From: Octopus sinensis
Lineage: Eukaryota
DNA length: 64,000 nucleotides
NCBI RefSeq assembly: GCF_006345805.1
Contig: NC_042999.1
Location: 17,918,001-17,982,000, forward strand
Direction of reading: 5' to 3'
Shown: in pieces, positions 594 to 59,598 of the stretch
How positions within the stretch are numbered: the first letter of the stretch is position 1
Layout: each line of letters opens with the position of its first letter
Notes under the pieces: model-generated
What the model was told of the DNA's origin: nothing
Seen by the model: the letters and a program-made list of their open reading frames with translations, nothing else
Databases searched by the model: none
Position numbers and translations under genes: made by a program

Positions 594-739
594 CCCTCCT
601 AAGTATCCTAGCTGTCCCTAATAACACTGTTTTCAGCAGCTGCACTAAGCTGGGTTTTATGCTTATTTCCTCTATCCATCTGTTCAAAGCTTTGCGGAAA
701 ATTCCAAATGCACCTATAACTACTGGAAAGCATTCCCCC

Positions 740-1355
740 AGATCTTCCCCTCTCTGTGGTGGAGCGCTCCTTCCTCAGTAGGAGGTCTGCGTTTCATCCT
801 CCTCACTCCATCCTGTAAGGAATTTCAAACTCGTGCTGATATCCACTGCTTTGTGCGCCGCGTTACGTTTTGTGCGCTCTTCCGCGACACTCCACCCGCA
901 TCAAACGAGGAGGACTGCTTCACTGACCTGGGCCGCCGACCATCCCAGTGGACGCCTACTCCTGGGCAGTTTCAAGCAGTGGATCTTTTTGCGGGCGCCT
1001 GCCAGTGCACTGTGGACCGGTTCAACTTCTCCAGGCGTCCGTGTTGTCTCAACATCTCCCCAGCCGAACTCTCGGCTCTTGGTTCCCTCCGGCGGCGCAC
1101 TGACATCGTTATTAAACCGGCCGACAAGGGTGGAGCAGTGGTGGTATGGCGCGCGGACCTACAAGGCCAAAGCTCTCCGTCAACTCCATGACACCTCCTT
1201 CTACTGCCCTCTGTCCTCTGACCCCACGACCAGCTACCAACAGACGGTCTTCTCTACGATCAATGATCTCATCTCGTCCTCCCGTCTCCCCTACACCGCC
1301 TCCAACCTCATTGTCCGAAACCCCTGCACCCCCAACTTTTACTTCCTCCCAAAAT
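740..1355 (+). pseudogene. Penelope-like element RT N-terminal fragment (frameshifted)
   Basis: Motifs NISPAELSALGSL..DIVIKPADKGGAVVVW and FYFLPK, split over two frames, are the PLE pre-RT motifs (ADKG; FYxLPKIHK). Confidence 0.85.
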
Positions 1356-1358
1356 CAA

Positions 1359-1566
1359 GAGAGAGTCGCCATGGTAGATCGTTAGCCACTGCATACATTT
1401 TTGCCTTTCCTTCTTTCTCTCCTTGTTTTTTCTGTGCCCCTTTCTGTAGAAGAGCGTAGGCTCGAAACGTAAAATACTTTTTCTATTCCTGAGCGTTATA
1501 CTAATACATCTGTTTGTTTTGTACATCACTTGTCTTCGTCTTTTGTTTTTTTCGTAAACTCTCCCT
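1359..1566 (+). mobile_element. ~210 bp hammerhead-bearing short element ending in (TA)n, copy 1 (probable PLE terminal repeat)
   Basis: Homologous to 1987-2196, 7330-7521 and 14819-15011(-). Contains CTGTAGA-AGAGCGTAGGCTC-GAAACGTA at 1444-1471. Confidence 0.8.
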
Positions 1567-27769: not shown

Positions 27770-27990
27770 ATTTACATCATTTACATTATTTACATTTGAC
27801 GAATAGTTGTCATCACCTTGTTTGTTGTTAACAAGACGTTTCGGCTGATATACCCGCTTGGGGAAATTTCGAACCTGGTTTCTCATTCCTAAGGTATTTT
27901 TCGATGTTGTTGTTGTTATTGTTCCGGTCACTGCTTGGAATCGAACTCGGTATCTTGGGGTTAGTGTCCCGCGCTCTTCACGCTTACGTG
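27770..27990 (-). mobile_element. Repeat with tRNA-like head and 3' half of a hammerhead motif
   Basis: Minus strand: GAGTTCGATTCC B box, (AAC)n, then CAGCCGAAACGTCTTGTT. Confidence 0.45.
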
Positions 27991-28179
27991 GGCAATTATG
28001 GAGTGTATTTTAGGGCTTATGAATCTAATATTGTTCTATCCTTCCTCAATACCTGTTCCCATATGCTATTCATATCTGAACACGATCTTCTTAGGAGGTT
28101 TTTATGTTGTAGCATATGTGCTGCTTCTTTAAGTTTTAGAATTTTCCAGTGGTGTTATCTGTGTATTATTTTAAAACGC

Positions 28180-28495
28180 AGCAAGTATGTATTCAGGATA
28201 TCCGTATACCGCAAGCCAACCTGTACTGGACGATACCTCAACTTCAATTCCCACCATCCATACAGTGTAAAGAGAGGGATTACTCAGTGCCTAAAACATC
28301 GTGCAAAGAATATAAGTAGTGATCGTGATACACACCACGAAAAAAATTATCACGCTCAATAACGATCTATTAAGCAACAACTGCCCCAAAAGTATACTAC
28401 CCACTCCAACTATGAAGAAGAGAGAGGATGAAGCCAATAAACTATCCGCAGTCTGTCTACCTTATGTGAAAGGCCTCTCCGGAAAGATACATCTA
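28180..28495 (+). pseudogene. Penelope-like element RT thumb fragment (Penelope/Poseidon-like)
   Basis: SVYRKPTCTGRYLNFNSHHPYSVKRGI...RAKNISS, then LPYVKGLSGKI. Confidence 0.85.
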
Positions 28496-31279: not shown

Positions 31280-32040
31280 AAGCCACGTGCTTCTCGAATA
31301 TTTACCACGTGGGACAACATACTTAGATGCATTTAAACCGACGAGCTGCTGAAAAGTGTCTCTTACAAACGGTGACCAAATCTGGTCAAGGAAATGTTGG
31401 AGATGCCGCAGCCTGAGCAAATGTCTGCGCATCAGTAACCACGGCATGCCCCATCCATTCAGCGGCTGTTGTCAGTAGATGGAGCGCCTGACTAGTGGAA
31501 AGCGGAAGATTAAGCGCACCAGCATGGTTAACCAGGAAACAAGGCAAAGGACGACAGTCAAGCGGTAGTAGATGACGGTTGCGTTGTAAGCATTTGTCAT
31601 CTCCGCTCGACCTTTCAGGGGCAGCTTCCTCTCGGCCCATTTCTGGGTGAGATTAGCTAACCTGCTCGTCACCTCGTCCTAGGATTTCTCCACCTGGAAG
31701 TCCGGACTAAACCAGACCCCCGGCAACTTAACAGGACCGTCTGTCCAGCGCCCCACGACGCTGTTGGACGGCATGGACTTACCTCTCTAAGTACTGAGTT
31801 AACTTTTGCTCCTGTCACCGCTTCATATTCTTGTAGTGTTTCGCCAATCAGGCCTATATGCCTGTGACTCGACACTATAACGGTGACATAATCAGCATAA
31901 GTAGACACGCTTCTCCCATATCCTAGATCACACGGGGCACACCTCAAAACCTCCAGCTTCCGCAATAATGGCTCAAGATACAGTACATAAAGAAGGAATG
32001 AGATAGGGCCATTCACCTGAACAGTTCCGACAGGTGACCG
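31280..32040 (-). pseudogene. L1/Tx1-clade LINE reverse transcriptase fragment
   Basis: PISFLLYVLYLEPLLRKL, STYADYVTV (YADD motif), YEAVTGAKVN, WAERKLPLKGRA; frameshifted. Confidence 0.8.
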
Positions 32041-32312
32041 TTCACTCGAACAGCTGTCTTTTTCTTTTCGCCTGTTATAAAATTGAAACTTAAAGATTGA
32101 TGATGTAATTTCATCAATGTGTGGACGCTGGTTGTTGTCGCTCATTATTTAAAATTAAATTTAAATTTTATGACGTTTTATTTTGAACTTGACAACGACG
32201 GGCTGACTGTCGAAATAGCGTTGAACAAATAAAATATCTACTACAATTGAATCGCGCTCTTCGTCTTGTCTGCTTACCCTTGGGAAGTCTTACGTTAATC
32301 CTTTTAAAATAT

Positions 32313-47377: not shown

Positions 47378-47696
47378 GTCTATCTATCTATCTGTCTATC
47401 TATGTACCTATCTATCTGTATATATAATATATATACAAAATATGTACAAAAACATACGTATATACATATATGTATATATATATGTATATATATAAATGTG
47501 TATATATATACATATATATATGTATATATATGATTTTGGACATATTTTGTATATATATATGTATGTATATAGATATATATATATATATATATATATTGTA
47601 TATATATGTATGTATGTATATATATATATATAATATATATATATATATATTATATATATATGTGTATATATATATGCAATAATATATATATATATA

Positions 47697-47776
<80 letters not shown>

Positions 47777-47781
<5 letters not shown>

Positions 47782-48330
47782 AATCAAGGAACGGCCATAA
47801 TAGGCCATTCACCCACTAGAAATAACAGCCAAAGCTTCAGCCGCAAAATAACATTAATTCCGTAAACCAGGAGAAAATTAAAAAGACATATACCCTGTAT
47901 ATAAATTTGGCGCGAGTGCGATGATTTGAAAATTTTAGGTCAGATATTGCCGAGGCAGGGACAGAAATGCCTCGTGAAAATATCTGTTCCGATCTGGCTA
48001 TTTCTTACTGACGATTCTAAGGGCCTATGGAAGATTGGCTTGATTTAATTTAATCAGGTTAGTTTACCATTAAACAGTAGATGAAACGGTGCATCGTATA
48101 AGAAATTACAGGGTAACTGTTTTTTAATTTTCTCCTGGTTTACGGAATTAATGTTATTTTGCGGTTGAAGCTTTGGCTGTTATTTCTAGTTGGTGAATGG
48201 CCTATTATGGCCGTTCCTTGATTGTGATGTTGAACTTAAAAATAGTCTATGACTATTTAATTTTTTTCCCACTAGGCCGCTGGTGGCAAAAAAATTCTAC
48301 AAAATTTTTTGCCACCCTATATTGATTAAT
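47777..48330 (+). mobile_element. (TA)n-embedded element: ~122 bp inverted arms enclosing a complete hammerhead ribozyme
   Basis: Arms 47777-47899 and 48107-48228 are nearly identical; HHR at 48000-48106; terminal hairpin at 48282-48316. Confidence 0.85.
48000..48106 (+). ncRNA. Complete type I hammerhead ribozyme with extended stem II
   Basis: Stem I ATTTCTTA/TAAGAAAT (8 bp), CTGACGA, long stem II, GAAA, near-palindromic stem III CGGTGCATCG, cleavage triplet GTA (predicted cut after 48098). Confidence 0.85.
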
Positions 48331-48923
48331 TATATATATATATATATATTTACGTATTCTGTCAAATCGCAAAATTTATGACATATGGACTTTTACATTT
48401 TATATTTTGCTTCACGGAAAGCAGCTGCATCATCTAAAATAGCAAATTGCTTTGATTCTTTCTATGAGTTTCAACTTCAATAAAAAAAATACATTAATGA
48501 TGGCAATGATATTTCATCAAATGCCATTGAAATTCCATTATCAGCTACGTTTGCTAAACGCTTCTAGTATATAAATTCCTATCTTATACAAAGCTATGGA
48601 AGCAGTAATATGACCAATACAAAATATTAAATATATATATAACAAAATTATTTCAGTAATATCTTCTGTATAGATGCATGACTTATTGGGCGACCGTCCA
48701 ATCAAACATAGTGTACACACACATAAACACACACACACACACACGTACATACACAAACACACATTTAACAGCGCAGTGGAATCGGACATTTTGCATCAGT
48801 TTTAACCACTGGGTTATGTACAGAGTAACGGGAGACTGACACGACCCAAATATAGTGACATTGATGTGTGTGTGCCATGGTATTTAGTTCACTTTTATCG
48901 ATACATAATACAAAACATGCATT

Positions 48924-48954
<31 letters not shown>

Positions 48955-49658
48955 ATATATAATATATAATATATATATATATATGTTATATATAAATATA
49001 TATATTTATATATATATATATATTTACGTATTTACATATATGTAATATAATGTATTGTATGTAATATATTTTCCTGAATCTACGGATTAAAAAACAATGC
49101 TACGCCATTGGTTTAACTTGATACTAATTTTATCAATACTAATTTCTATCCTCGTTATTTAATGGAAATAATGCACCTTGTGTACATGACAATACCAACG
49201 AGTGAAAAATAGATAAGCACCAAAGAGGCGTACTAAACACTCCGATAATTGATGAGAAGTTATCTTTTCCTATTTTTGTCTTGTACTTTCCTCTCGTGTG
49301 TTTACGTATTTTTCACTCGTTGGTGATGTCTTCTATATAATGTGTATGTTTTTGGTATCTTGTCCTATTCTGATCTCTCGTGTGTTTACTTGTTTTTCAC
49401 TTGTTGGTGATGTCCTGAATTTTCATTTTATTTATTTATTTTTCTTTATTTATTATCGAACGCTACGCACCTTGACTGCAGTAAGTTCTTACTTTCATAT
49501 ATACATACATACATAAAAATAAATCTATAAATATACATATATGTATATACCAGAGTAAGCGTAAGTACATAAATGCGAAACAAGGTGGAAAAATATTAGT
49601 CGAATACCGGGTGTAAAATAATATGCTCTATAAAAATGCACCATAAATATCGCAAAAG

Positions 49659-55197: not shown

Positions 55198-55404
55198 AAT
55201 ATATATATATATTATATATATATATATATATTATATATATATATATTTATATATATATATGTATAGATCAATAAATGGTGGGGTTGTGTTGACCGCAGGT
55301 GGAGAAATGATAAGTAAGGAAAAATTTTTTTTAAAATGCAGAATGCTCAAATGAAAGAAAATTTTAATAATATGAGAAATTGATAAAATATATAAATATA
55401 TATT

Positions 55405-55445
55405 TATTCAACCGGTTTTCGTCATTGTATGACTTGTCAAGAATA
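55405..55445 (-). ncRNA. Hammerhead-like motif in the PLE 3' terminal repeat (variant core UUGACAA)
   Basis: TATTC-TTGACAA-GTCAT-ACA-ATGAC-GAAA-ACCGG-TT-GAATA; stems I and II and a palindromic stem III are intact. Confidence 0.65.
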
Positions 55446-56074
55446 TTTATGTTTTAAGAAGTTTTTTTAAAAGTTAGAAAGGGGAAAAAAAGAAAATTGC
55501 ATTGTTTTTTGTAAAAGAATAATGATAAAAATGTACAAAAATTAAAAAATAAGTTCTCCGATACATTGTGAGTTCGTTGTGTATCTTGAGTTCTATGGTT
55601 GTTTACGAAAAAATTACCTTGAGGTGTTAAGATCCAAAGGGATTAAGAGCATGTGTTGTGTTGTGTTGTTAAATTCAGCATGTTTGCAGGACAGGAAGTA
55701 GTAGTAATTGTGGTCCTGGTTCTTCAGTTCCTGTGTTGTGAGTAAGGGGAGACAACTCTTTTGAGTTCTTCAATAAAACCCAAATTATAAAACTATCATT
55801 TTAGCTTCATTTGCATTATCTTTTTTATATAATTGCTTGTTAACTTAACTTTCAGATTTTAACACTTTATTTATATTATTTTCTAATAATATAATCTGCA
55901 TAGACAATTGCATTTCAAATTGTCATATCATTTATAATAAAAATGATAGTAATAACAACAATAGTAAAAATGATATTTAAAGAATATCAGTTTTAGCTTG
56001 AAGTGATGAATGCATGGTATCTTTATATATTTGTGTTAGTCCATCCATGAAGAGTGAGGTAGAGAAAGGAAGTT

Positions 56075-58388
56075 TGATCAACGAGGAGTTTGCATATTAA
56101 GTTGTGTTTGGAATTTTTCAATAAAGAGATTCTCCTTGTTAATTCTCTCCTGTGTGGTGATCCCGTCTTTACATTGGTAGAAGGGGAATATATAGAATTT
56201 GGGGTTTAAGTCTTTAGCACATGAGTCTAAGTGGTCACTCAGTGGAATTTGTCGGTTCCGGGAGATTTATTTGTTCTTTATGCACCGTTACTCGTTTACG
56301 TAACGGGAGACTCGTTTGTCCAACATAATTATGTTGGCAACCAGCGCATGTGAGAACGTAGATAAGGTTCTCGGAGGAACAGGAGAAGTTAGTCTAGATT
56401 TTAAACTTCGTACCTTGTTTGAAGGTAAATTCAGAGCCTTCAAGTAGAAAGGGACAGGTACCACAGTTTGAGCGTGCACATTTTTTTTACTGTTGGGGGT
56501 GGATGTCGTGTGTGAAGTTTGGCATTTGTCAAGAGTTTTTTTAAAGATTTGTGTTGCCTTTTGCATTTGAGGATGTTGTGTGTATTTATAATGTTTTTCA
56601 TTTTTGGGTCTGTTGACAGTAGACTGAGGTTTTGTATGATTGTGGTGTATGCTTCGATATTTTTGGGGTTGTGGGTGGAAATGTATGGAAGTATTTTGAG
56701 GTTGTGTGTGGTGTTAGGTTGGGTGGTTTTCAGTGTAGTGTTGTCTAGTTCTTTGGCGCGTTTTATTCCATACTCTATAAGGGTGGAGGGATATTGACGT
56801 TGTAATAGTGTTTTTTTGAGGTCTTGAAGGCGTATTTCTCGTGTTTTTGGATCCGAGACAATGGTGCATACCCTTTTAGCTAAATTGAAAGGGATATTGG
56901 TGTGTTTTGGGTGGCATGAACTAAAGAGGAGGTATTGTTGTGAGTCTGTAGGTTTGTGGTAGATGTCTGTTATGATTTGGTTCTTAGGTGTTTTTTAATA
57001 ATTAGGAGATCAAGGAATGGGAGATGATGTTTGCTTAATTCCATAGTGAATTGGATGTTGGGATGTATGTTGTTTAGTATGGTTTTGAATTCCAGGAGTT
57101 TTTCATAAGGTTCTTTCCATATGATGAAACAATCATCTAAATACCTTTTCCAGTTTTCCATTAGGTAGGTGTGGAAAACATGTCCAAATTTCTGGCTTGA
57201 TATTTCATAGAGTGACAGTTCGAAGTAACCCATTATGAGGTTCGCAAGGACTGGTGCAGCCTTGGTACCCATCGCAATGCCACATTTTTGACGGTAGTGT
57301 GGTGTCGTCGAAGAGAAAAAAATTGTTTGTCAGAATGAACTTAAGAGATTCTGTAATAAAAGACTTGTTAATGCGGTCAGGGAATGTCTCTGGGTGTTTT
57401 TCTAGCCAGAAGTCAATTGCCTCTATACCATACTCATGTGGAATGTTGGTGTAGAGGTTGATGACATCAAAGGATACCAGGAGTGCCTCCTCGTTAACTG
57501 TTTTCGGGAGGTGTTTGAGCATGTCCAGATCATCCCTAATGAAACTTTTGATGTGGGTAAGGAAAGGTTTCAAAAGGATGTCTAGGAAGTTACTCAGGCG
57601 GTGTGTTTCACAGGAGGTACCAGCCACGATGGGCCTTAGTTTTAGGTCCAACGGTGCTTTGATGTTGATGTGATGGATGTCAGTGAGAGTTTGCAGGCTT
57701 CGGTGATGTATTTGTTTTTATGGATTTTAGGAAGGCCATAAAAATGCCTGGGCTTACATTTGAAAATGGTGATATAATCCCTTTCTTTTTCTGTGAGTCC
57801 CTGACCGTGTTGGCGTATGAGTGTGGTGAGGTTTCTGATTGTTTTTTGCTGTTTGTAGTTGTTAATAACCTCATAGAATATGTTATTGTTAAGCATGGAG
57901 AACACTCGGTGTTTATAAAATTCCGGGTCCATAAGGACCACAGCACTCCCTTTGTCCGCTTCTTTGATGGTGAGGTTTTTATCCAGTTGTATGTCACGTA
58001 GGTTTTCCCATTCTTCCTTACTGAAATTGGATTTTACCTTGGTTTTGCTTGGGGTAAAGGGGAGACTCTGGATGTGTTTACAGAAATCGTCCAGTGTTTT
58101 ATTTCTCCCTTTTGGTGGTAGGAAGTTGCTTTTATTTCTGATCAATGAATCGTCCCCATTGTTGATATCTGTCAAAGCTTCTGTTAGGCGAAGTTTTCTG
58201 CAGAATTCAGAAACGTCATCCTTGACCATGGGTGTTCTTGGGGTGGGTGTGAATTTCAAACCTCTTGCTAGGATGTTGATTTGGGTTGGTGTCAGTGTTT
58301 TGCTGGAGAGGTTTATAATTTTTGTTTTCTTATTTTGGGTCTGTGTTAGCGGTGGTGTTTGTATTTTTCCCCTCTGTCTAAAAAATGG
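56075..58388 (-). pseudogene. PLE reverse transcriptase plus GIY-YIG endonuclease (frameshifted)
   Basis: IINLSS..ILARGLKFTPTP, IKEADKGSAVV, FYGLPKIHK, LRPIVAG, VSFDVINLYTNIP, MGTKAAP, WKRYLDDCF, LPFLDL, DIYHKPTDSQQYL; CARSNCGTC linker; LIYVLTCAGCQHNYVGQT..LRKRVTVH. Confidence 0.93.
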
Positions 58389-58415
58389 TTGTTGAGGTAA
58401 GGGGTGTATTCTTTG

Positions 58416-59538
58416 TTAAAGTTCTGGTTGTATGTGTAGGAGTGTTTTTGGGTGGGGAGGTTGGAGGGGGGTAGGTAGTTGTCGTATTTGTGTTGGTATG
58501 GGATGCGATTGTGTAAGGATTTGTGAGAAATGCGATGGGTTTGTGGGTGTGTGTCTGGTAGATTGTATGGGGGATGTAGGTGGGTATGTAGTTGTGGTGA
58601 TTGGGTTCGTGTGGGATGTGAGGGTTTGGAGATCTGTAGGAGATGTGGTAGGAATGTGGTTGTTGGATGGGTGGACTATAGGGGTTCGTTGGGTGGGTCT
58701 TATATGTATCGGTGTGGGTAGGATGCCTTGTTTGTTATTAGTGTGAGGGAGGGAAGCCTTGAGGGGGGGATAATTTCTAGTGTATGGGAGGTTCTTGAAG
58801 GTTCTAATCGGTGGGGGAGGGGTGTTAGAGTGATTGGAAAACCAGGTTTTGTGGTGGGTCTTGTTTGAGATGTTTCGGGGGGGAAAAGGTTTTTTATATG
58901 GTTGGGGGAGGTTGTGTCCTGTTAGGAGGGGGTTTGGAGAGTATGTGTATTTGAGGTGCGGTTTGGAATGGTGTTTATGGGGTACAGTGGAAGTCTGTGT
59001 TGTGGGTACTTTTATGAATGGGTTTTTGGATTTATGGTTTAATATGAATTGTGTTTCATAATTGAGGAAGACATCTTTGTTGTTTTCCCAGCGTTTAAGG
59101 GAGGTTCGTTCTTCCTTTTCACATTCATCTTTCCATAGTTTAATAACAAGTTCGAGGGGCTGTTCGTTGGTGTGTGAGGTTAGTTCTAGAAGTATCTCAT
59201 CGTCTATTTTTGTGTATTTTTGTTCGTGGTTTTGTGCTCTGAGTTTTAGAAGTTCTACTTCGGTTTTCATTTTTTCCAATGTTAGTTTTTCTCTTAGGGA
59301 GCGTTGTTTTTCAGGTTCGTCAGGGATGTGTTTGATTTGGAATTTTCGGGGTAGTATGATAGGGGAGGAGTTTAACCATTTGTCGTAAATTTCAGCTTTG
59401 TTTTGGTCTTTGAGCATGTTCCAGAAGAGAAGTTTTGTGTTGTGTAGTTTCTTAGTCCAAGTAGTGATGATCTGGTTTTTAATGCGTTGTGCTGGGGTTG
59501 AATAGTGTTCCTTCTGTGTGTTGAGTGGTGTCTGAGGT
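58416..59538 (-). CDS. Upstream PLE ORF: charged, coiled-coil-like region followed by Pro/Thr/His low-complexity tail; no start codon identified at the element edge
   Basis: About 370 stop-free codons inside the element (EKQRSLREKLTLEKMKTEVELLKLRAQNHEQK). The N-terminal ~85 aa of the track ORF come from flanking (TA)n. Confidence 0.7.
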
Positions 59539-59598
59539 ATATGTATGTATATATATATATATATATAATATATATATATATATAATAATATATATATA

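What the first reader, a model, noticed from the sequence alone, without database searches (positions are those of the whole stretch)
47777..48330. Complete hammerhead enclosed by 122 bp inverted arms, with a G-U-rich long stem II
Seen: near-identical inverted arms enclose an intact HHR (8 bp stem I, canonical CUGACGA/GAAA/GUA). Stem II extends as a 19-position helix (48027-48045 with 48052-48070) with 13 Watson-Crick pairs, 5 G-U pairs and 1 mismatch. Those five positions pair only as plus-strand RNA, which points to selection on RNA rather than DNA structure. The unit sits between (TA)n tracts and ends with a second hairpin (48282-48316). Inference: a young, probably active self-cleaving RNA that folds into a rod, resembling a retrozyme or viroid-like RNA or an inverted PLE terminus.
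Basis: partly seen in the sequence, partly recalled or inferred. Interest (0 to 1): 0.75.

Follow-up and report, generated by a model that had tools for sequence, protein, structure and literature searches.

The report
Hammerhead retrozyme copy with Penelope-style inversion
This is one truncated copy of an abundant, young, non-coding jumping repeat that carries a predicted self-cutting hammerhead RNA; its mirror-image arms differ from copy to copy and are likely a scar of copying by a Penelope-type retrotransposon enzyme, not a viroid-like rod.

Summary
There is a type I hammerhead core (48008-48098), the 19-position helix with 13 Watson-Crick pairs, 5 G-U and 1 mismatch, and 123/122-nt arms. 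The rod reading does not hold. The unit is 430 nt of a ~486-nt monomer found as tandem arrays across the genome (at least 2,499 exact core matches), which makes it a non-LTR retrozyme. The left arm is a second, inverted, 5'-truncated copy; none of 21 other close insertions has this junction. What is conserved is the pair of outer ends. Of 42 inverted insertions with both ends in view, 39 pair the short end (48228) with the long end (48330), 3 are unclassifiable, and none repeats an end; nearly all lie in (TA)n. This is the Penelope-like inverted-copy-plus-tail footprint. Stems I-III covary across subfamilies about 70-78% identical, and the G-U bias persists. The monomeric fold is 5.1 kcal/mol above an inactive fold. 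Stem III is self-complementary, so dimer cleavage is predicted and this lone copy likely cuts poorly. Cleavage, transcription and the helper element are unproven. The scan reported this kind of element before, in this genome and others. New member of a known kind.

The parts
47419..47776 (.). Left (TA)n tract, target site
   Evidence: copies of the family end in (TA)n
47777..47899 (-). Inverted, 5'-truncated second copy (monomer positions 264-385). Its 3' end is the fixed short end S; specific to this insertion
47900..47900 (.). Head-to-head junction, one extra base, no microhomology
   Evidence: (gap 1)
47901..48330 (+). Direct, 5'-truncated copy (monomer positions 58-485 of ~486). Its 3' end is the fixed long end L
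47941..47986 (+).
   Evidence: prediction only
48000..48106 (+). Type I hammerhead: stem I 48000-48007/48099-48106, core 48008-48014, GAAA 48083-48086, predicted cut after 48098
   Evidence: covariation
48015..48082 (+). Stem II: U-U at its base (48015/48082), 4 bp proximal stem (48016-48019/48078-48081), internal loop, distal helix
48027..48070 (+). G-U-rich distal helix (13 WC, 5 G-U, 1 A-A), kept across subfamilies
48087..48096 (+). Stem III/loop 3, a 10-nt self-complementary stretch, predicted dimerisation site
48107..48228 (+). The 'right arm': ordinary monomer sequence, ending at the short end S (48228)
48229..48330 (+). ~100-nt tail between the two fixed ends, present on one arm only
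48282..48316 (+). Terminal hairpin, 12 bp
48312..48325 (+). 14-nt motif beside the long end, 12 of 14 identical to the long-end motif of a Neptune-like PLE family
   Evidence: 5 of 5000 shuffles as good; 0 of 25 other UTR 30-mers
48331..48349 (.). Right (TA)n tract

Best explanation
This is a 5'-truncated, two-armed insertion of a ~486-nt non-coding tandem repeat that carries a type I hammerhead fold (a non-LTR retrozyme), likely pasted into a (TA)n tract by the enzyme of a Penelope-like element. Steps: (1) Shown: the family lies in tandem arrays, each unit with one hammerhead whose stems covary. (2) Predicted: array transcripts cut themselves as double hammerheads through the self-complementary stem III. 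This would free unit-length RNA, which may be ligated to a circle as shown for coral, mussel and axolotl retrozymes. (3) Inferred: a Neptune-type RT/GIY-YIG protein cuts both strands of (TA)n and primes reverse transcription from each DNA end at one of two fixed internal sites, S (48228) and L (48330). (4) Shown as footprint, inferred as mechanism: the two cDNAs grow inward and join head-to-head at a variable point, giving inverted arms with one S end and one L end. Here the S-primed cDNA is 123 nt and the L-primed one 430 nt, so a single hammerhead happens to lie between complementary arms. This copy cannot by itself give a unit-length RNA and is likely an inert or weakly cutting offspring.
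For:: 43 matches at 95-100% identity among 40 scored of 1,755 candidates. Exact core patterns give 2,123 and 376 matches, with 0 for the reversed controls; a divergent stem III pattern gives 266 (control 1). Tandem monomers of 485-490 nt, up to 10 in one arm (list). Longest stop-free frame in a dimer is 55 aa and GC is 36.5%. Junctions differ in every inverted insertion except one duplicated pair. 39 of 42 inverted insertions pair S with L, none pairs like ends. A young Neptune-like PLE with open 782-aa RT/GIY-YIG frames also targets (TA)n and has two 3' ends ~50 nt apart. It pairs long with short in L039, L057, L058 and L041/L042 and shares the 14-nt long-end motif. Structure: 92.3% of 804 cells paired against 22-48% for slid controls; stems I and III have two-sided changes. 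Double hammerhead -65.7 kcal/mol against -58.6 for two monomer minimum folds and -48.4 for two monomeric hammerheads. Literature: inverted 5'-truncated copy, tail at one end and microsatellite bias in PLEs (PMC8557442); two internal RT start sites define the tail (PMC11167929); dimeric type I hammerheads, including an axolotl one with a U-U at the base of helix II that cleaved 22% in 1 h as a monomer and better as a dimer (PMC7229834).
Against: No cleavage, transcript or circle was shown here. No PLE with extended similarity to the monomer was found in 30 loci of the Neptune-like family or 30 GIY-YIG loci, a small sample of 14,583 and 5,029 candidates; the helper link rests on 14 nt and a shared footprint. 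The tail is ~100 nt, not the 30-40 nt in print. The double hammerhead is still 3.2 kcal/mol above the best two-strand fold. In vitro, the Anolis PLE showed no difference in start site between strands and did not need hammerhead cleavage. In Xenopus only 1 of 9 predicted retrozyme dimers cleaved. In PLE locus L032 two short-type ends lie together in another arrangement. 27 of 59 complete insertions showed no inverted arm at the BLAST threshold, though some have short inverted stubs in their flanks.
Confidence: 0.85

Rival explanations
1. Same element, but no circle: arrays are copied from linear multimeric transcripts of existing arrays, and the hammerhead only trims ends or is dispensable for mobility.
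For: Most long arms read straight through the predicted cut site. The PLE enzyme in vitro uses uncleaved RNA. A sub-lineage with the weak U-U stem II has still spread (33 of the first 100 matches listed). Only 27 of 86 copies had their nearest neighbour strictly within their own insertion, with 13 ties.
Against: Stems and core covary across subfamilies, so the fold is under selection. Copies within an insertion differ by 0.8% (opposite arms 0.7%) against 3.5% between insertions. 8 of 26 multi-copy insertions share private substitutions across their copies. That fits one template, but also a homogeneous source array.
Confidence: 0.35
2. The sequence is the detached terminus (pLTR) of a protein-coding Penelope-like element.
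For: Hammerhead followed by two 3' ends, (TA)n target and inverted copy all match PLE ends.
Against: Monomers join head-to-tail with no coding body. No PLE ORF is contiguous with a copy in the 30 divergent loci scanned; the one PLE fragment nearby (L101) is separated by a long TA tract. The close-subfamily loci were not ORF-scanned.
Confidence: 0.07
3. One reading: arm-hammerhead-arm is a conserved rod-like, viroid-like RNA.
For: A transcript of this locus would fold into a 120-bp rod, z -28.
Against: The layout occurs in 0 of 21 other insertions. Any inverted duplication gives such a z-score, and the minus strand gives -23. The family monomer folds as a branched structure, 60% paired. The scan found no minus-strand hammerhead here.
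Confidence: 0.02
4. A fold-back DNA transposon (MITE) or an assembly chimera.
For: Inverted termini in TA.
Against: The ends are asymmetric (S and L) and the arm length varies. Contigs of a public run show 9 joints from the left-arm sequence to varied places in the unit, and a second run shows 1, so such inversions are not peculiar to this assembly. The window's own junction was not shown bridged.
Confidence: 0.01

Closest known systems
Metazoan non-LTR retrozymes (PMC7229834, parts 2-4 of 6 and passages read; bioRxiv 10.64898/2026.07.22.740005, parts 1-3 of 5 read)
   Same: Type I hammerhead in each unit of a low-GC, non-coding tandem repeat; short stem III with a palindromic loop; U-U at the base of helix II as in axolotl HHR_Amex2; co-occurs with PLEs.
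   Different: The unit is ~486 nt (170-400 in the first paper, 51-972 in the second). Stem II carries a long G-U-rich extension. Arrays are two-armed with fixed S and L ends; 'inverted', 'octopus' and 'cephalopod' occur 0 times in the main text of PMC7229834. Cleavage and circles were not tested here.
Insertion units of EN+ Penelope-like elements, Neptune/Penelope/Naiad (PMC8557442, passages; PMC11167929, parts 1-2 of 4; PMC4209133, passages)
   Same: Partial tandems, an inverted 5'-truncated copy, a tail often on one end only, (TA)n targets, and a hammerhead upstream of two RT start sites.
   Different: No ORF. The tail is ~100 nt. The hammerhead is full-sized rather than minimal. The one-short-one-long pairing is counted here as 39 of 39 classifiable cases; the passages read state it only as 'often'.
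Non-autonomous Chlamys elements such as MRC1 (PMC8557442, passage)
   Same: Non-coding, multicopy head-to-tail insertions mobilised by a PLE.
   Different: Those resemble their autonomous partner at the 3' end; here only a 14-nt motif is shared with a candidate helper.
Hammerhead viroids and viroid-like RNAs (recalled)
   Same: Hammerhead; possible circular RNA.
   Different: Genome-encoded in thousands of DNA copies, one polarity only, and the rod is not conserved.

Membership tests
Non-LTR retrozyme | Type I hammerhead | tested here: met
   Rfam models did not detect it
Non-LTR retrozyme | Tandem units of a few hundred bp, each with a hammerhead (family level) | tested here: met
Non-LTR retrozyme | At least two consecutive hammerhead units in this copy ('active' in the 2026 preprint) | tested here: not met
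   The window copy has one hammerhead and 430 of ~486 nt
Non-LTR retrozyme | No protein, no LTR, GC under 50% | tested here: met
   (55 aa stop-free at most, GC 36.5%); PBS and PPT were not searched
Non-LTR retrozyme | Unit RNA predicted to be highly self-paired as a circle | tested here: inconclusive
   -142 kcal/mol, 60% paired, z -6.6 on 30 shuffles; the minus strand scores z -7.5
Non-LTR retrozyme | Self-cleavage in vitro | not testable with these tools
   Only folding energies
Non-LTR retrozyme | Expressed as linear and circular unit-length RNA | not testable with these tools
   Only contigs of runs not on record as RNA were offered
EN+ Penelope-like element | RT and GIY-YIG ORF | tested here: not met
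EN+ Penelope-like element | Inverted 5'-truncated copy, and tail on one end | tested here: met
   tail ~100 nt rather than 30-40
EN+ Penelope-like element | Microsatellite target bias | tested here: met
   3' ends abut (TA)n in nearly all insertions shown; L114 abuts (TG)n
EN+ Penelope-like element | Homology to the pLTR of an autonomous element | tested here: inconclusive
   14-nt motif only; none in 60 PLE/GIY-YIG loci
Viroid-like rod RNA | Conserved rod fold of the unit | tested here: not met
Viroid-like rod RNA | No DNA form; ribozymes in both polarities | tested here: not met

The most novel reading that the evidence does not exclude
Each insertion is made from one hammerhead-cut, circularised ~486-nt RNA that a dimeric Neptune-type enzyme copies from both ends of a cut (TA)n at once, one subunit starting at S and the other at L. 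The strict S/L pairing and the variants shared by both arms are then the genomic record of coordinated two-ended, rolling-circle reverse transcription, and the conserved G-U-rich helix is a protein-binding element of that RNP.
Probability: 0.3. Interest if true: 0.6.

Novelty: new member of a known kind. Interest (0 to 1): 0.3.

Why it matters
The locus itself is ordinary: one truncated copy among thousands. The family gives a concrete handle on two open points that the papers state. One is which enzyme mobilises animal retrozymes (PLEs are proposed, not shown). The other is how PLE tandem/inverted/tail structures form. A short non-coding RNA with two fixed priming sites, a strict one-short-one-long pairing of ends, and a young intact candidate helper in the same genome would make a compact substrate for the published PLE in vitro assay. 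Eight literature searches listed no paper describing a cephalopod retrozyme or a counted end-pairing rule. Supplements were not read and may list such elements. The scan itself has reported the pattern several times.

Tried and rejected
Rfam at gathering score and at E up to 10: no hammerhead hit. Sequencing runs: no RNA holder listed. The contigs laid cannot show strand, ends or expression, so nothing is concluded about transcription; one search served only as a lead to variant subfamilies. Helper search: long-end patterns returned retrozyme subfamilies and one unrelated hit; 30 GIY-YIG loci showed no real similarity. Cleavage footprint: 12 of 85 arm 5' ends fall at monomer 250-275, just around the cut (p 0.002 under a uniform null). 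However, two are artefacts (a spurious short hit in L130 and an interruption in L077), none starts exactly at the cut, the bin was chosen after looking, and the null is crude; I treat this as a weak hint. The first anchoring of the helix failed for one subfamily and was redone; 3 of 31 truncated rows were dropped. In one search most two-sided changes in the distal helix are single rows, probably the truncated copies. The one clear two-sided change (G-C to A-U at 48042/48055, in 6 of 21 distinct arm pairs) shows only. All 26 divergent rows were picked by a pattern that fixes stem III, so its covariation counts as one event. Pol III boxes: only weak one-mismatch matches, no A-B pair in order on the + strand. 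Search of earlier findings by sequence: nothing.

Full report
Observation. Stem I pairs 8 of 8, and the core, GAAA and GUA are in place. The helix 48027-48045/48052-48070 has 13 Watson-Crick pairs, 5 G-U and one A-A. It is stable only as plus-strand RNA: -17.4 kcal/mol against -4.2 for the minus strand and -1.9 as DNA. The arms are 123 and 122 nt with five differences. A descriptor scan found no motif with an 8-bp stem I in 20 shuffled windows. Rfam missed the motif. Hammerhead numbering and the core consensus are recalled knowledge.

The real unit. The window lies in a 2.7-Gb animal genome; that it is a cephalopod is my guess from size and repeat content, not tested. A search with the stretch between the arms gave 1,755 candidates; 40 were scored, giving 43 matches at 95-100% identity. 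The 30 loci fetched collapse to 22 insertions. They show a monomer of about 486 nt in head-to-tail arrays; the window copy lacks its first 57 nt and is about 99% identical to its closest relatives. Exact patterns count 2,123 and 376 cores in close subfamilies and 266 stem III matches in subfamilies about 70-78% identical. The monomer encodes nothing longer than 55 stop-free codons.

The arms. The left arm is monomer positions 264-385 on the minus strand, joined head-to-head to positions 58-485 on the plus strand. None of the 21 other insertions has this junction, and junctions scatter over the whole monomer. The rod is therefore an accident of where two copies met. What is fixed is the outer ends: about position 385 (window 48228, S) and 485 (48330, L), abutting (TA)n. 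I counted inverted insertions with both ends in view: 32, 2 that span several loci and 8. Of these 42, 39 have one S and one L end, 3 could not be classed (L072, L103, L130) and none has two like ends. L072 and L074 share a junction and are not independent. The rule holds in the divergent subfamilies (11 of 12). Another 27 of the 59 complete insertions showed a single arm.

This is the known footprint of Penelope-like elements: an inverted 5'-truncated copy, a tail often at one end only, and microsatellite targets (PMC8557442, passages). The tail was explained in vitro by two internal RT start sites (PMC11167929, parts 1-2). That paper saw no strand difference in start-site use, so the strict pairing seen here suggests coordination between the two DNA ends; this is inference.

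Candidate helper. The window also holds a frameshifted Neptune-like PLE at 55260-59540. Its family is young, with open 782-aa frames that hit RVT_1 and, below cut-off, GIY-YIG; the clade name rests on the cysteine linker described in PMC8557442, not on a tree. It inserts in (TA)n, has two 3' ends about 50 nt apart, and pairs long with short in four head-to-head insertions. Its long end shares 12 of 14 nt with the retrozyme long end (5 of 5,000 shuffles as good). No longer similarity was found in these 30 loci or in 30 GIY-YIG loci. The helper is a candidate only.

The ribozyme. Across 31 aligned copies, 92.3% of 804 cells keep a standard pair, against 22-48% for slid structures; stem I has three pairs and stem III one pair with two-sided changes. 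Proximal stem II is rebuilt with different letters in several subfamilies. Core variation falls at N7, the cleavage base and U4/C4. The distal helix is kept: among 21 distinct arm pairs there are 12 G-U column-types against 2 A-C (p 0.006, not corrected for ancestry), and one pair changes on both sides. One of the five G-U positions (48038/48059) is A-C in 18 of 21 arm pairs, so it is not a conserved pair. The monomeric hammerhead fold lies 5.1 kcal/mol above an inactive fold in the window copy, and 1.7-7.9 above it in 11 relatives. Stem III with its loop is self-complementary over 10 nt in both subfamily types. A double hammerhead scores -65.7 against -58.6 for two separate minimum folds, though 3.2 above the best two-strand fold. 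Dimer cleavage is documented for animal type I hammerheads (PMC4209133, passages). It is also documented for an axolotl retrozyme with the same U-U (PMC7229834). So arrays are predicted to cut and this single copy to cut poorly. The U-U variant is a minority: 33 of the first 100 matches listed.

Template. Copies within an insertion differ by 0.8%, opposite arms by 0.7%, and different insertions by 3.5% (mixed subfamilies); 8 of 26 multi-copy insertions share private substitutions. This fits one template per insertion but does not separate a circle from a homogeneous array. An excess of arm ends near the cut site is a weak hint only.

Comparison and verdict. The family meets the sequence-level definition of a non-LTR retrozyme (PMC7229834; bioRxiv 10.64898/2026.07.22.740005). 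Cleavage and circular RNA could not be tested. It inserts like a PLE but is not one. This copy fails the preprint's 'active' criterion. My reading was written down before looking at earlier scan notes. Those notes report the same kind of element and end rule in this genome and in others; they are not independent support. No supplements were read. Verdict: new member of a known kind, with a useful mechanistic footprint; interest 0.3.

Noticed in passing
window 55260-59540 (-); intact relatives L151-L153: 5'-truncated, frameshifted Neptune-like PLE in (TA)n. The family is young. In L153 a 499-aa frame with no Pfam hit overlaps the start of the 782-aa RT/EN frame, which may mean two ORFs, a frameshift or an intron.
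   Followed up: partly
window about 55405-55445 (-); L153 2225-2265 (-): Minimal hammerhead-like motif in that PLE's 3' UTR with U and A at core positions 3 and 8 (a compensated pair, recalled as tolerated), one extra A after GAAA and a palindromic loop 3; about 100 nt upstream of the short end.
   Followed up: no
L091-L118: Many divergent copies have C at core position 4 (CCGAUGA) with a canonical G-C at the base of stem II and a longer or shorter distal helix; several subfamilies.
   Followed up: partly
L077 1051-1296: A copy is interrupted by about 245 nt of other sequence one base after the predicted cut site; an earlier scan note mentions a retrotransposon that inserts into this family.
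   Followed up: no
L124 2703-2794, L157 near 1271-1315, L016 1386-1403: Short tandem stutters of element sequence at the head-to-head junctions, as expected from repeated template slips during joining.
   Followed up: no
L164, L165, L173, L183, L186 and others: A second abundant Neptune-like family also ends at two sites about 35-45 nt apart in (TA)n.
   Followed up: no
window 649-1459 (+), 27832-28362 (+), 31669-32148 (-): Further decayed retroelement fragments (two PLE-like, one LINE-like by eye; no Pfam hit).
   Followed up: no
window 49261-49428: Two-copy 84-nt direct repeat, 70% identical.
   Followed up: no
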